Positions 9,979 to 61,632 of a DNA stretch of 64,000 nucleotides are shown piece by piece (within the stretch, counting starts at the first letter, position 1; each line of letters opens with the position of its first letter). The notes under the pieces were generated by a model, which was given only the letters and a program-made list of their open reading frames with translations, searched no databases and had not been told where the DNA came from. This stretch comes from Eledone cirrhosa. Its lineage: Eukaryota. The DNA lies in the NCBI GenBank assembly GCA_964016885.1, contig OZ024742.1, positions 313,348,001 through 313,412,000 of the forward strand, in the 5' to 3' direction. A program made the translations under genes and the position numbers.

Positions 9979-10067
9979 TATATATAATATATATATATAT
10001 ATTGTAATAATAATAAATTTGACGACTAAAACCCAAAGAGAGTTCGATAAGAATAAATATATATCAA

Positions 10068-10936
10068 ATGCATTCTAGCCATCCTGCCAGCATAACCAAG
10101 AACCTGGTAAGAAACGTTTCTTTGGGGCTTTCCCGTCTATCTACAAACGAGCATATTTTCACCGACCATTCCACATATTACAATGAAGCTCTTGCTCGGA
10201 GTGGATTTGTCGATAAGGTAGCATATACAGAGTATGAGCATAGACCTAGGAAAAATAGATCCCGATGCATTATATGGTATAACCCACCATATAATATGGA
10301 GGTGGCCACACCATTAGCTAAGATCTTTCTCTCCCTTATTATGAAGCATTTCCTCCCAGCACATAAATATAATAAAATTTTTAATAGAAATACCATTAAA
10401 ATGTCTTACTCTACAACTCCTAACCTTGCACATAACATCACTGCTTCAAATTTAGCTAAATTACCTAGTCGTAGGAACACGTGCAACCATGTAGCTAGTA
10501 CTAACTGTAATTGTAGGAATCGGGTTGACTGTCCCCTATCTGGGAAATGCCTCTCTAGTAACATTGTCTACAAATGTAAGGTTGAAACACCCACGTCCCG
10601 TAGGGCCTACATAGGGTTAACTGCCAATAGATTCAAGCAGCGTCTTTACATGCATACCCATTCTTTTCTTAACCCTTTAAGAAGGAATATGACGTCACTT
10701 TCATCTGTCTAAAAGACAACCACACCCAATATAGGTTACACTGGGAGATCCTAGCTAAGACTAGATCATATAACGGAAATAAAAGACCATGTGACCTCTG
10801 CGCCGCTGAAGCCCTTGAAATACTCTACGCCAGTGATCACATCTTATACAAGAAATCTGAGGCAATTTCAACTTGTAAACATAAATTGCTCAAAAATTTC
10901 CTGCATTACAGCCCCACATTATACCTTAACGGATAG
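10068..10936 (+). mobile_element. Penelope-like retroelement (Naiad-type), 5'-truncated: RT thumb, Cys-rich linker and GIY-YIG endonuclease, frameshifted near 10708
   Basis: SSHP thumb motif, WYNPP, KIFNRNTIKMSYS, CNCRNRVDCPLSGKC (CxCx5C), NIVY..AYIGLT..FKQR..H. Continues in another frame as LKDNHTQYRLHWEIL..CDLC..E..CKHK to TAG at 10934-10936. Confidence 0.88.
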
Positions 10937-11844
10937 TACGAACTATACGCGGATAATTTATGTCTTGATGTGGTAGCTAAGTATATGTTATGTTTATACC
11001 ATTACTTATTTGTATAGGTTAGTATATATTACCTGTATGTTTTGTGAAGGTACGTATACTTTCTCGTACGTATATTTGCTTGTATTTGTTATAGGCGTAT
11101 ATATTATATTATATATACTGGTACATGTGTATATGGTTATGTGTATATGGTTATGTGTATACATGAGTTTTGCATGTGTGTGTATGCGGGTTTGCACGTA
11201 TGTGGGGTGTGTGTATATGTGTACTTTGTGTTTTGGTTGACGTACGTTTAGCGAACATATGTGTATTTAGATGTAGGTATGTGTGTGCGCGCGTTATATG
11301 CGTATTTATGTGTGTATATTTATATACGTTTATATAATTGTATGTATATGCGCACACACACACACACACACGCATATATATATATATGTTTTATGTGTAT
11401 TTGGTGTATACGTTCGTATGTGTGCGGGTACAGGCGTTGCGTGGGTTTTTGTATGTGTGCGCATGTTTATGTGCACGTGCTTGTATTTGCATAACCATGG
11501 CGGATGTTTTCGAGTATGCACGTTTACGGATGCGTGCATGTATATATTTAATTATTGTTGATTTCAATAACCTCTGTAATTTATGTACATTATTCTTAAC
11601 TCTGAAGCCGAGAATCATTCGGTTTCCTAAATAGAATTTTAGTCTACGACTTCAGTTATACCATAAACGTAGTTTTGTATTTGCGTGTAATTGTTCTCAC
11701 CGCCCTAAATAATGACGTATTATCTTCGTTTTTTCCGTTCTTTGCCAGGGAACGTCTCCACGAACCAAAGTATCGTCTTCCTGTCTTCCTTCGGTTGCAA
11801 CGTTTTTCGAAATTTTACTTCTGCGTTCACAGATTGTTTTTTTT

Positions 11845-11895
11845 AGTTTCAGAAGATCGCGTTAAGGGTGAAAGTAGCGATTCTTTGCTTAAACT
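11845..11895 (+). ncRNA. Possible decayed hammerhead at the 3' end (pseudo-LTR) of the Penelope-like element
   Basis: AGTTT-CAGAAGA-TCGCGTTAAGGGT-GAAA-GTAG..TTGC-TT^AAACT. Core has U-to-A and stem II is weak. Confidence 0.4.
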
Positions 11896-12075
11896 TTAAT
11901 CTGTTATTTTAATAAATATATATATATATAACCAAAGATTAATATGGTTCGTTGATTACTCAATGAATATAATTTTACAATAGATTAAAAGCACTCAACA
12001 TAAAAAAAGTTTTCCTGGAGTTTTTAATATTATTCAAAATATTAACAAATGAAAGATAGTCACATAATCAAAATA

Positions 12076-12427: not shown

Positions 12428-14093
12428 ATCATCATCGTCTATCTTCCATGCTAGCATGGGTTTAGACGGCAATTGTCCCACTTGAGGCAAGATTGGTTGG
12501 GTGACCATGTCTCGCTTGTATAGGACTGTCTGGCAGGTTTTCTACGGCTGGATGCTGGGCTGGGATTGGAGGGGGGGAGTAGGGGTATTGGGATGGGGTG
12601 TATATTTGGTTAAGAGGTGCCTACTGACTGTAGGTTTCGCTTTGTACATAGGCAAGGCGGGTCTTCTGTATTACTGCGTAGCGCCAAAGATCTCGGTCCA
12701 GTGACATTGTCTTAGAGACATGTAAGTTTGTAAGGTCGGAATTTATCAAATCGTCCCAGGTTTTTCTGGGTCTACCTACTCCGTAACTTGCATCAATATT
12801 GATCGCCCTGCACTTTTTTATACAACTGTCATCTTTCATGCGCATCACGTGACCATACCAATGTAGTCTTCTCTCGAATAAACCGCATCTGATCCCTCTT
12901 ATTTCTAATTTTTCCCTTAGTTCATTTATGCTTTGCCATTCACATATATTACTATTACACATCCAACGGAGCATGCATGCTTCATTCCTCTCCAGTCTGT
13001 GCAGGTCCACTGCACACAATGCCCATGTGTCACTGCCATGTAACATTGTTGTTCGTATGCAGGCATCATACAGCCTGCCTTTCATTTTTAGACAGAAACT
13101 TTTAGTGGCCAATAGTGGTATAAGCTCTCTGAACTTTTTCCCTCCCGTTCTGACTCTAGCTACTGTACTTTCAGAGCACCCTCCACCACTGCTGATTTTG
13201 TCACCCAGGTAACGGAAGGTGTCCACTAATTCTATAGAAAGAGCTAGTATCCTGTGGGCACTTGCTACTTATTGCACCTGAGCATCGGCCACATATAAAA
13301 TCTACGTTCTTAGATAGCTTACCTGTGATCCCACTACATCTTTTATGTACCCATAGTTTGCATTTGGGACATAAAATGGAGTTTCTGCCTACTCCTTTCC
13401 TACACACTGAGCATGGCCATTACCCAGAGGGTACTTGTGCCCTATTTTCCTTTCTACATACTAGAACTTTAGTCTTAGACAAGTTAACTTTAAGGCCTTT
13501 TGATTCTAGGCCATGCTTCCATGTTTGGAATTTCTTCTCTAGTTCAGCCATCGATTCAGCTATGAGAGTTAGATCATCTGCATAGAGAAGTTCCCATAGG
13601 CAGTCGGTCTTGAACTCCTCTGTTATAGCCTGAAGGGCAATAATAAATAGGAGGGGGCTAAGGACAGAGCCTTGATGAACACCAGCTTTTACGCTAAATT
13701 CTTCACTATATTCATTGTTAATTCTAACCTTGCTGACTGTTTCTTCATACATGGCTTGTATAGCTCTCACCAGCCATTCATCAACACCTAGTTTTCTAAG
13801 AGCCCACCAGATAATGGAGCGGGGGACTCTGTCAAAGGCTTTCTCCAGGTCAACAAAAGCTAAGTATAGGGGTTTACTTTTAGCTAGGTACTTCTCCTGT
13901 AGTTGTCATACAAGGAAAAGAGCGTCTGTGGTACTTTTACTTGACACAAACCCAAACTGCATTTCATCTAGATCAATTCGCTCTCTGATTAGTTGCGCTA
14001 TAACTCTTTCTGTGACCTTCATGACCTGGTCAACTAATTTAATGACTCTATAGTTTCCTCTATATAGGGCATCTCCTTTACCCTTGTAGCAAT
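12428..14093 (-). mobile_element. RTE-clade LINE, 5'-truncated, degenerate reverse transcriptase and 3' UTR with (GAT)n tail
   Basis: ORF fragments YKGKGDA..GNYR, QFGF...STTDA, GVHQGSVLSPLLF, LLYADDL, FRYLG, RLHWYGHVMRM, GRPRKTW, with stops and frameshifts. Confidence 0.93.
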
Positions 14094-14118
14094 ATAATAT
14101 ATATAAAATCATATAGCA

Positions 14119-14212
14119 AGCATATCTGACGATCTTTTGATTATAGAATCAGGTTCGATCTATAGTAGGTCTTTCCTTGAGCTGACCAATAGTGAAATAT
14201 ATGTAATATGTT
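14119..14212 (+). ncRNA. Type I hammerhead ribozyme with expanded 61-nt stem II domain
   Basis: AGCATAT-CTGACGA-[61 nt]-GAAA-TATATG-TA^ATATGTT, 7-bp stem I. Confidence 0.75.
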
Positions 14213-15734
14213 ATTTAATATGCTATGATGCAACACTGTTCCTTTATCCTTATAGTATTATACTCTGCTCTATGTGAGCATCGAGTGCTCAACTAGCATA
14301 CCGCCTACGGATGCAATTTTCTTGCAACCATACAACTATATATATGTGTGTGTGTATTCATAGAAAATGTAGGAATCTCAGATGGAGAAAATACCTGTAA
14401 ACACAGTCAGTTGTGATAAATAATAGCTTAGAAAATCAAAAAATCAGGTAAAATACCCCTATGGATGGAAAACAAAAGTGGCCAGAGGATGAAGGGGAAC
14501 TTTCTAATTGCAAATCCCATGGTCAAATATGTGTCTTATATACATACAGACAGACATATATATGCAAGTGTGGAACAACAAATGTAGTAAAATTATGATA
14601 TATATGTATGTATATATTATATATATTAATATGACAGCCTTTCACACAGTTTCTGTCTAAGTTTCACTCTGACAAGACATTGGTCAACTCTAGACTATAT
14701 TAGAAGGCAAACACCATCAGCATACAGCCATGTTTGTAATAATAGAAAACGAAATAGAAAATGAAGGAGATGGAAAGTGATACAGTGAAACATATATTGA
14801 CATATATAGTTATATATAGTGCTAGATAGATAGAGAGAGGTAAACAGGGAGGTAGATATATAGGTGACTAGATAAATAGATAGATGGACAGGCAGGTACA
14901 CAGACAGATAAATAGATATATTAATAAGACAGATAGATAGACAGAGAGGCCGAAAGACAGACAGACGGGCAGACAGATAGATAGATAGAAAGATAGATAG
15001 ATAGATAAATGTAAGAATGAAAGGTTCAATGTATGAACAAACCATTGAATGACTGGACAATTGGAAAGATAGATCAATTCATTGATTTACCGGTTGCTTA
15101 GTAACGACATTGTAAAATGCAATAAAATAAAGAAATATATAATCAAACAGTAAATAAAAGAAAAAGGAACTTTCTGGATTAATAGACGAAAGAAGAGAAG
15201 CTGGTTGTTGGTGGACAGTGGGTGTAGTTAAAGTAGACATCAGTCATATAACAGATATAACACATTAATGTGAATACTATATATGACAATGACAAGCGTT
15301 TTTAAAGCCATTCACCCTGCTAAAGCAGAGGTTAGCCTTGCAAGCATCATGACAAGCTTCTCCATTTTATCTTATTCTCTATATCCTCCCTCAACAATCA
15401 TCTGACTTTCATTTCTTCCTCAATTATTTTTAGATAAGTCTTTCTTGGCTTTTCCTTTCTTCTATTTTCTTCTGCATTAATTTCCATCACTCATCTCAAC
15501 CACCAACTGTCATCCTTCCCCAACACATGTCCCAGCCATTTCATTCCATTTACCTTCTCAATATTTATCACTGGCTTTATTCCCATCATCTTCAGCAATT
15601 CATTATCTGTCTTCTTCTCACTCAGTAATACTTTGTTCAACCACTGGAGCCATTCTCATTTCTGTTCTTTTCAACCTCCTCTACTCCATATAAATATTTA
15701 GAACGCCATATTGTGATACTGATATTTATATAGA

Positions 15735-21296: not shown

Positions 21297-21572
21297 ATAA
21301 TAATAATTGTTTCTACTTTTGGCACAGGACCAGCAATTACTCAAGTGCATTACTGGTGCTTTATTTTATTGACCCTGTAAGGAAGAAAGGCAAAATTAAC
21401 TTCGGCGGAATTTGAACTCAGAATGGCAAGGGCTATAACTCCATGCGTTAAAGCTTGGTGTCCGACCCTCTAATGATACTGCCAATCCCCCCCTCCTCCC
21501 CTAAGGGACGTAATAATAATAATAAATAATTGGGGAACAAAGAATCAGTGTTGTATCATATACATATTTAAT

Positions 21573-21665
21573 CACATATTACATATGTTTCACTGCCGAT
21601 CAGCTCGAGGAACGATCGATTATGTTCATTCCTAACTCTTGAATTGAAAGCTCCTCAGATATGTG
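21573..21665 (-). ncRNA. Type I hammerhead ribozyme with expanded 60-nt stem II domain
   Basis: Minus strand CACATAT-CTGAGGA-[60 nt]-GAAA-CATATG-TA^ATATGTG. Perfect 7-bp stem I and palindromic stem III. Confidence 0.8.
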
Positions 21666-21794
21666 CTTTCATATGTAGACTCACATCCAAACACTGATTC
21701 TTTGTTCCTTAATTATTATTGATACTCTGCTCCTCAATAGCATTGAATGTTCATCTTAGCATACTGCCGGCAAAAGCAATCCAATTACATTCAT

Positions 21795-25040: not shown

Positions 25041-25257
25041 TATACCCCTGCACTTTTTTATACATATATATATATATGTGTGTGTGTGTGTATAATAAGT
25101 GGTTCAGTAGATTCGTGGTTTACTGAGGAGGGTACCAAAATCAGCACTCTAATGTAAGGCAGAGTGTATAAATTAAAAACAAGACAAGGTTTCACATTAA
25201 GGTCTTTATTGATTACACACAGTTATTACTGTTTCACAGATGGGTGGCTCAGGAAGG

Positions 25258-60868: not shown

Positions 60869-60924
<56 letters not shown>

Positions 60925-61020
60925 TGGTGTTGGCACCAAAGCAAGCACTCTATGTACAGGCAAGGCGTGTATATTAGAAAAAAAACAAGGGAGTTTTGTT
61001 TATTTTTTTTTTTTTGTCAC

Positions 61021-61119
61021 ATTGCCAGTCTGAAGAGCATATCTATAGTGGAGTCGGGTCCATAACTCCTATGGGTTACCTTGAGCCTATACTCTGTGAA
61101 ACGTGCGTAATAGGTCAAT
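61021..61119 (+). ncRNA. Type I hammerhead ribozyme with expanded 61-nt stem II domain (intronic, antisense to TMEM41B)
   Basis: ATTGCCAGT-CTGAAGA-[61 nt]-GAAA-CGTGCG-TA^ATAGGTCAAT. Flanked by an inverted repeat (about 60974-61002 and 61148-61174). Confidence 0.72.
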
Positions 61120-61632
61120 AAACAATAAATATCATATCATATACATGTAAACAAAACTTCCTTGTTTTTTTCTAAAATAAATATAAATATACCCCATCTA
61201 ACCCATGCTAGCGTGGAAGATGGACGTTAAACGAAGATGATGATTATGATATACATATATATTGTCGGTTCTACATATGATGCCTCTGGGATCATTGACC
61301 TAAGATAGCCCTAGTCTCATTGAACAAGAGCAAGAAGACAACATATATAAATATATATATACATATATATATATAAACACACACATACATGTGTGTGTGT
61401 GTCCATGCTGTTTGTTTATGTTCTGTAACTTAGCAATTCAACAAATAGAGATCAATAAAAACAGGTGCTGTAGTCATGATCAGCTAAAACTCTTCAAGGC
61501 AGCACTCCTGCATAGCCTCAGTTCAATGAGTGAAACCAAGAAAAGAATAAGATTATATGTATTTAACCCTTTAGCATTTAAACTGGCTGCATCCAGCCAG
61601 AATTCTCCTTGTTTGCTGATCTGGTGCCACAA

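What the first reader, a model, noticed from the sequence alone, without database searches (positions are those of the whole stretch)
14119..14212. Hammerhead ribozyme variant whose stem II is replaced by a conserved ~60-nt two-hairpin domain (three dispersed copies plus one half copy)
Seen: copies at 14119-14212 (+), 21573-21665 (-) and 61021-61119 (+) each have a complete core (CUGANGA ... GAAA ... GUA), a pairing stem I and a 6-nt near-palindromic stem III (TATATG, CATATG, CGTGCG). They carry 61, 60 and 61 nt between CUGANGA and GAAA, against about 14-34 nt in the other copies here. The inserts differ in sequence but each folds by eye into a short basal helix and two hairpins. The second hairpin shows compensatory closing helices (GGTC/GACC, GATC/GATC, TATGGGTT/AGCCTATA) around a shared CCTYGAGC motif. 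A truncated relative at about 25215-25257 (-) reads TTCCTGAGC..TGTGAAA. Established: minimal type I hammerheads with palindromic stem III mark Penelope-like pseudo-LTRs and retrozymes. Inference: conserved length, covariation and a conserved apex point to a selected branched stem II, such as a tertiary docking, protein-binding or regulatory module. Length-limited motif searches would miss it. I cannot confirm from here that it is undescribed.
Basis: partly seen in the sequence, partly recalled or inferred. Interest (0 to 1): 0.88.

Follow-up and report, generated by a model that had tools for sequence, protein, structure and literature searches.

The report
Long rod-armed hammerhead in jumping genes
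These are worn end-pieces of Penelope-like jumping genes, present in thousands of copies in this animal genome, whose hammerhead ribozyme motif has an arm about three times the usual length that is predicted to fold as one long rod (not two hairpins) around a small, strongly conserved loop that likely binds a protein.

Summary
The three hammerheads and the half copy are real. They are 3' ends of Hydra-clade Penelope-like retroelements: the class has 5,197 exact pattern matches in the genome against 2 controls, and one subfamily runs on into a Hydra-type GIY-YIG endonuclease through a 1.8-kb 3' UTR. The two-hairpin reading fails. All 7 multi-copy subfamily majorities fold as one unbranched rod; rod pairs hold in 88% of cells with 8 of 13 changed on both sides, the proposed second hairpin in 64% or 32%. 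CCTYGAGC is not an apex but one strand of an internal loop, GAGUC opposite GAGC, identical in all 7 subfamilies and recurring in 78-90-nt arms of another Hydra clade. Arm length is not fixed (about 12-90 nt). A tree-aware covariation test found no significant pair; cleavage is untested and 0 of 30 copies begin at the cut site. Likely role: protein-binding site. Long-armed Penelope hammerheads were noted earlier by this scan on other DNA. New variant of a known kind.

The parts
14106..14345 (+). Copy 1: 5'-truncated pseudo-LTR fragment (subfamily A2) with hammerhead, 3' end and optional tail, ending in (TA)n
   Evidence: BLAST to subfamily copies; sequence
14119..14212 (+). Hammerhead 1: stem I 14119-14125/14206-14212, CUGACGA 14126-14132, 61-nt domain II 14133-14193, GAAA 14194-14197, palindromic stem III, GUA 14203-14205
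14146..14182 (+). Conserved internal loop of copy 1: left strand 14146-14150 (decayed to GAAUC) opposite GAGC 14179-14182
21510..21687 (-). Copy 2 (subfamily A1): core starts 21658, 60-nt domain II 21651-21592, loop strands 21638-21634 and 21606-21603, GUA 21582-21580
21690..21780 (+). Inverted partial 3' end and tail joined to the 5' side of copy 2, the usual inverted arrangement of Penelope-like insertions
   Evidence: arrangement described in PMC8557442 section 6
61012..61174 (+). Copy 3 (subfamily B): core 61030-61036, 61-nt domain II 61037-61097, loop strands 61051-61055 and 61083-61086, GUA 61107-61109
60921..61002 (-). Inverted tail fragment at the 5' side of copy 3
25131..25254 (-). 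Half copy (subfamily C): truncated inside domain II; keeps GAGC 25250-25247, GAAA 25235-25232, a shortened stem III, the 3' end and part of the tail; cannot form a hammerhead

Best explanation
These are type I hammerhead motifs at the 3' end (pseudo-LTR) of Hydra-clade Penelope-like retroelements, whose stem II is predicted to be one long unbranched rod carrying a conserved small internal loop (GAGUC opposite GAGC) that likely serves as a binding site for the element's own reverse transcriptase-endonuclease protein or a host protein. Shown by the sequence: the cores, thousands of copies, the link of one subfamily to a Hydra-type endonuclease, the two alternative 3' ends, (TA)n targets, inverted 5' copies, and invariance of the loop across subfamilies. 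Predicted: the rod fold. Inferred from known Penelope biology: the short palindromic stem III makes a lone ribozyme weak, so cutting would need a dimer or protein help; reverse transcription starts downstream of the ribozyme on uncut RNA and stops early, leaving short solo copies like the three here, which then decay. Untested: any cleavage, and the identity of what binds the loop.
For: Rod: 7 of 7 multi-copy subfamily majorities give one hairpin, with pairing probability 0.62-0.99 to the left arm and 0.00 to the rival hairpin; the best two-hairpin fold is 4.4-5.9 kcal worse or absent within 6; 86 of 97 single copies and 39 of 42 copies fetched afterwards prefer the rod pairing; 88.4% of cells paired, 8 of 13 pairs changed on both sides, slid controls 23-52%. 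Loop: 9 of 9 loop columns against 5 of 53 other domain II columns are identical in all 7 subfamilies; the same G(A)GU/AGC geometry occurs in 5 of 10 clusters of 78-90 nt that have unalignable arms, 0 of 40 shuffles each. Element: 4 of 30 loci join the 63-nt subfamily to a CxCX5C + GIY-YIG endonuclease 1,760-1,871 nt upstream; L091 is hammerhead-ORF-hammerhead with period 2,986; homologues in Apostichopus and Hydra. Uncut template: 0 of 30 copies picked by their downstream part begin at the cut site, 28 reach 17 nt or more upstream of it, as for the Anolis element whose hammerhead cut only with protein present (PMC11167929).
Against: A tree-aware covariation test on 97 copies (effective number 32) gave no pair under E 0.05; the compensatory changes come from few subfamily splits. 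RNAalifold on the first raw alignment predicted no structure. The 26 rows were my pick from the 97, leaning to copies near their subfamily majority; on all 97 the rod scores 83.5% and one rival register 72.1%, because GAUC is repeated in the largest subfamilies. 5 of 13 singleton clusters fold into 2-3 hairpins. The loop is absent from all 36-49-nt arms and from 5 of 10 long clusters under the strict definition, and a locus grouping with the 63-nt family has a 49-nt arm without it (L279), so it is not needed by all Hydra elements. The tree does not join the two loop-bearing clades. No protein binding or cleavage was measured.
Confidence: 0.55

Rival explanations
1. The arm grew long by fold-back duplication during reverse transcription and the loop is only a leftover of common descent; pairing is kept because the core needs a closed stem II, and neither length nor loop has a function.
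For: These elements often make inverted duplications; arm length ranges freely from about 12 to 90 nt across families; many families lack the loop; inserted copies decay almost evenly (6.0% loop, 8.4% rest of arm, 10.8% downstream).
Against: Loop columns are invariant while neighbouring pairs swap on both sides, and the loop persists in arms with no alignable sequence and endonucleases about 35% identical.
Confidence: 0.22
2. The internal loop is an RNA tertiary contact that docks on stem I, on the A-rich stretch after it, or on a second ribozyme in a dimer, replacing the usual loop I-loop II contact.
For: Natural hammerheads need a stem I-stem II contact (PMC3088659); stem I here is only 5-7 bp with no canonical partner bulge seen; an A(A/U)UAAA follows the cut site in 61 of 100 copies.
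Against: All 5 stem I pairs vary on both sides, so no conserved partner there; the loop lies 14 nt from the core in one class and 27-33 nt in the other; A(A/U)UAAA is as common in families without the loop (60 of 98).
Confidence: 0.13
3. One reading: a selected branched domain II with two hairpins and CCUYGAGC at the apex of the second, perhaps as an alternative state of a switch.
For: Copy 1 alone folds this way; in the largest subfamilies a repeated GAUC allows a 4-bp rival helix (72.1% of cells on 97 copies).
Against: Probability 0.00 in all 7 subfamily majorities; 63.5% and 31.6% paired in the two registers, neither clearly above shuffles (31 and 260 of 500); registers and loop sizes differ between subfamilies.
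Confidence: 0.05
4. The conserved bases act at the DNA level, as part of the pseudo-LTR promoter or a single-stranded cDNA hairpin used in integration, and the ribozyme is dead.
For: Pseudo-LTRs hold the promoter (PMC6765202); 11 of 30 5' ends fall within 103-113 nt upstream of the cut site; no copy starts at the cut site.
Against: G-U pairs are tolerated along the rod and in stems I and III, and the catalytic core is kept in every family; the two conserved strands face each other in the RNA fold.
Confidence: 0.05

Closest known systems
Hammerheads of Hydra-clade Penelope-like elements (Craig et al. 2021, PMC8557442, section 11 and File S2)
   Same: Type I, 3' pseudo-LTR position, short palindromic stem III, often no G10.1-C11.1 pair, (TA)n targets, C-terminal GIY-YIG with CxCX5C linker and no CCHH, optional tail, inverted 5' copies.
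   Different: The 26 Hydra rows of File S2 have about 12-26 nt between CUGANGA and GAAA (my count); here 56-63 and 78-90 nt with a conserved internal loop; 3' UTR of about 1.8 kb in the 63-nt family.
PLE-X1_sMoe and PLE-X1_sTam hammerheads of spike mosses (same File S2, marked as deviating)
   Same: Penelope-like element hammerheads with a long domain II (about 54 and 48 nt by my count), so long arms have a precedent in print.
   Different: Other clade and kingdom, single families, no conserved loop described, and no GAGUC/GAGC motif in the listed sequences.
Minimal hammerheads of metazoan Penelope-like elements (Cervera and de la Pena 2014, PMC4209133) and the Anolis PAc hammerhead (Frangione et al. 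2024, PMC11167929)
   Same: Mostly solo truncated copies, opposite-strand pairs, palindromic stem III, helix II longer than canonical; uncut RNA used as template; two reverse-transcription starts give the optional tail.
   Different: Published helix II is 6-8 bp; here about 22-35 bp by prediction. PAc cleavage was shown to need protein; nothing was assayed here.
Non-LTR retrozymes of animals (PMC7229834; bioRxiv 10.64898/2026.07.22.740005)
   Same: Type I hammerhead in a multi-copy animal repeat related to Penelope-like elements.
   Different: Retrozymes are short head-to-tail tandem repeats without an ORF; these copies are dispersed, 5'-truncated, and at least one subfamily has an ORF.

Membership tests
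Type I hammerhead ribozyme | CUGANGA, GAAA and NUH core in type I order | tested here: met
   core columns invariant (partly by selection of the pattern)
Type I hammerhead ribozyme | Stems I, II and III can form, with covariation | tested here: met
   stems I and III 82.7% paired, 6 of 8 pairs changed on both sides; stem II; tree-aware test not significant
Type I hammerhead ribozyme | Self-cleavage after NUH | not testable with these tools
   needs a cleavage assay; 0 of 30 genomic copies start at the site
Rfam hammerhead families | Score at the gathering threshold | tested here: not met
   0 matches in 8 loci; no hammerhead among the 150 of 234 rows shown for the window
Hydra-clade Penelope-like elements | C-terminal GIY-YIG with CxCX5C linker and no CCHH | tested here: met
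   63-nt family and L091; for the window's own subfamilies A1, A2, B, C the ORF was not reached and membership is inferred from about 80% identity of A to the 63-nt family and shared layout
Hydra-clade Penelope-like elements | DKT and RWK-type motifs in the N-terminal region | tested here: inconclusive
   present (DKT, RWR) in the 90-nt family L091; the four 63-nt copies are 5'-truncated before this region
Hydra-clade Penelope-like elements | Pseudo-LTR with hammerhead on both sides of the ORF, tail, (TA)n target, inverted 5' copies | tested here: met
   L091; tails and (TA)n; inverted copies; a 5' pseudo-LTR was not seen for the 56-63-nt class
Naiad elements | N-terminal endonuclease, no canonical hammerhead | tested here: not met
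   endonuclease is C-terminal and next to the 3' UTR; five of six family motifs had no match in the Craig supplement and the sixth was in an unrelated ORF
Non-LTR retrozymes | Short head-to-tail tandem repeats without coding capacity | tested here: not met
   dispersed truncated copies, inverted pairs, ORF link
Branched (multi-hairpin) domain II, as proposed | Two hairpins with a covarying second helix around CCUYGAGC | tested here: not met

The most novel reading that the evidence does not exclude
The G(A)GU/AGC loop is the docking site for the Penelope-like reverse transcriptase on its own RNA, built into stem II so that protein binding both gates the ribozyme and positions the nearby start of reverse transcription; it would be the first defined protein-recognition element in a retroelement hammerhead, for an enzyme family that is sister to telomerase.
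Probability: 0.25. Interest if true: 0.72.

Novelty: new variant of a known kind. Interest (0 to 1): 0.42.

Why it matters
What hammerheads do in Penelope-like elements is unresolved (PMC8557442; PMC11167929). Here over ten thousand pattern matches belong to long-armed forms that Rfam and short-spacer descriptors miss, so animal ribozyme counts are likely too low. A nine-base loop kept across diverged families gives one precise place to mutate when testing whether the element's protein binds and activates its ribozyme. The exotic branched architecture that drove the first score is not supported, and long arms have a precedent in a published table and in earlier notes of this scan.

Tried and rejected
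Two-hairpin model: rejected. Coding constraint on the insert (one frame is often open): rejected, subfamily lengths 57-63 break the frame. Non-autonomous element: my working idea after upstream walks of subfamilies A2 and A1 (about 750-800 nt) and 20 more loci found no ORF; withdrawn when the 63-nt family showed a 1.8-kb 3' UTR. Searches for a tail running on into an ORF: 0 and 4 matches, all (TA)-flanked. Link to the Hydra-like ORF at window 10023-10712 or to a neighbouring Neptune-like ORF: rejected, they end in other sequences. Naiad link: rejected. Tree-aware covariation: no significant pair. RNAalifold on raw copies: no structure. Relatives outside the genome: 7 viral and 95 metagenome pattern hits (flanks held for 80), none with both stem I and a palindromic stem III; no viral-contig relative of the ORF. 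No RNA holder listed; the one contig run laid says nothing on expression. NCBIfam and Pfam did not name the Hydra ORFs. Lunse et al. 2017 (PMC5785218) is not held. Six paper searches listed no description of this arm or loop; supplementary figures of Cervera 2014, Arkhipova 2017 and Repbase were not seen and could bear on novelty.

Full report
Observation. Four ordinary ones in the window have 14-34 nt. A model built from 26 copies elsewhere in the genome scores the three at 75-76 bits. The half copy near 25250 lacks the first half of the core. The window lies in a 3.0-Gb animal genome; I did not determine the species.

Copy number and length. A pattern with a 58-64-nt arm gives 1,579 matches against 65 controls. 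One that also asks for GAGT and GAGC gives 5,197 against 2. Arms of 63-92 nt give 5,187 against 20, arms of 20-49 nt 1,809 against 569. So about 60 nt is one class on a range; length is a family trait.

Fold. I collected 100 copies of 57-64 nt, 99 distinct, and dropped 2 as unrelated. Of 13 singleton clusters 8 give one hairpin and 5 give two or three. Of 97 single copies 86 prefer the rod pairing, and 39 of 42 fetched later, including new 56-58-nt subfamilies. On 26 hand-picked representatives 13 rod pairs hold in 88.4% of cells, 8 with changes on both sides, slid controls 23-52%. On all 97 the figures are 83.5%, 72.1% and 35.7%; the middle one is raised by a repeated GAUC in the largest subfamilies. 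Against: a tree-aware test found no pair under E 0.05 and RNAalifold on raw copies found nothing; the covariation rests on few splits.

The conserved part. CCTYGAGC is the 3' strand of a helix and internal loop whose partner is GAGUCRGG. All 9 loop columns, but 5 of 53 others, are identical across the 7 subfamilies (Fisher p about 1e-7, overstated because columns and subfamilies are not independent). The same G(A)GU/AGC geometry appears in the 78-, 79-, 82- and 90-nt families (closing pair probability 0.94-1.00) and the 85-nt family (0.29), with 0 of 40 shuffles each; it is missing by the strict rule from 5 other long clusters and all 36-49-nt ones. It lies 14 nt from the core in one class and 27-33 nt in the other.

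The element. Copies are short, end about 55-65 nt after the cut site or about 80-100 nt later (the tail), sit in (TA)n, and often carry an inverted copy at the 5' side. The 79-, 85- and 90-nt hammerheads lie 406-572 nt after a GIY-YIG endonuclease; L091 has two hammerheads 2,986 nt apart around an ORF with DKT, RWR and CxCX5C motifs, split over two frames, with homologues in Apostichopus and Hydra. These match the Hydra clade (PMC8557442 section 11). For the class in the window, walks of about 800 nt found no ORF, but 4 of 30 loci of the related 63-nt subfamily share 2.4-2.9 kb at 86-91% identity from a Hydra-type endonuclease to the hammerhead, 1,760-1,871 nt apart. The two loop-bearing groups each form a supported clade, but the tree leaves their relation open, and one 49-nt-armed locus without the loop groups with the 63-nt family (short rows, window-family rows thinned).

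Mechanism. Of 30 copies chosen only by sequence after the cut site, none starts at it; 28 reach 17 nt or more upstream. Reverse transcription therefore ran on uncut RNA, as shown in vitro for the Anolis element, whose hammerhead cut only when the element's protein was present and whose tail marks two priming sites (PMC11167929). Published Penelope hammerheads with palindromic stem III cut poorly alone (PMC4209133). I infer a weak, dimer- or protein-assisted ribozyme whose lengthened stem II presents a conserved loop, most likely to a protein (about 0.55 for the whole statement; the rod alone about 0.9). Stem I varies at all 5 pairs and the loop's distance from the core is not fixed, which argues against docking on stem I. 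Neutral elongation remains a real rival.

Comparison and novelty. The 26 Hydra rows in Craig's File S2 have about 12-26 nt in domain II; two spike-moss elements there have about 48-54 nt and are marked as deviating (my counts). Rfam gives nothing at threshold in 8 loci. Six paper searches listed no account of this arm or loop. Seen: PMC4209133 parts 1-2 of 4 and passages; PMC8557442 passages, sections 6 and 11, supplement parts 1-2 of 59 and searches; PMC11167929 passages and half of section 3; passages of PMC6765202, PMC10085705, PMC3088659, PMC7229834; part 1 of 5 of bioRxiv 10.64898/2026.07.22.740005. Lunse 2017 was not available. Earlier unchecked notes of this scan already report long-armed Penelope hammerheads in this and other genomes.

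Verdict. A real, abundant, new variant of a known kind: Hydra-clade hammerheads with a long rod-like stem II and a conserved internal loop. The branched domain is not supported. Interest 0.42.

Noticed in passing
L353-L382 (subfamily A2), 103-113 nt upstream of the cut site: 11 of 30 unbiased copies have their 5' end in this 11-nt stretch; other subfamilies also often start 10-40 nt before the core. Could be a transcription start in the pseudo-LTR, a reverse-transcription stop, or microhomology with (CA)n.
   Followed up: partly
3-30 nt after the cut site, all families: A(A/T)TAAA in 61 of 100, 39 of 49 and 60 of 98 copies of the three length classes, against 1, 0 and 1 in the next 27 nt: a likely poly(A) signal right behind stem I.
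   Followed up: partly
window 10023-11900 (+): 5'-truncated Hydra-type element of a high-copy family (150 scored hits at 85-93% identity) with a microsatellite-rich 3' UTR; its family's 3' end has a CAGAAGA variant core and a short arm. Not linked to the long-armed class.
   Followed up: partly
window 7687 (+), 8341 (-), 12138 (-), 23714 (-): Four short-armed type I hammerheads (27, 14, 34, 31 nt) of other families.
   Followed up: no
window 12621-13905 (-): Broken LINE-type reverse transcriptase fragments (Pfam RVT_1) next to copy 1.
   Followed up: no
L007, L019, L028, L103, L148: Another hammerhead family with a 36-47-nt arm and an 8-nt palindromic stem III, in places repeated at about 515-nt spacing; possibly a retrozyme.
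   Followed up: no
L009 near 86 (+), 84-nt arm: One two-copy cluster whose arm is predicted to hold three hairpins; a branched arm may exist in a different family.
   Followed up: no
L414 3158-4280 (+): A 62-nt-class hammerhead joined at its 5' side to the endonuclease-coding part of a different, short-armed Hydra family through about 4-5 nt of exact microhomology, (TA)n at the 3' end: possible template switch, one case.
   Followed up: partly
78-90-nt families (L061-L099): A second recurring element nearer the core, UGUA opposite UAGAC, seen by eye in several long families.
   Followed up: no
L275, L276, L289, L294, L297; L423, L428, L434, L436: The long 3' UTRs carry passengers: a SINE-like repeat inside subfamily A1 and a 52-nt tandem repeat expanded in the 63-nt family.
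   Followed up: no
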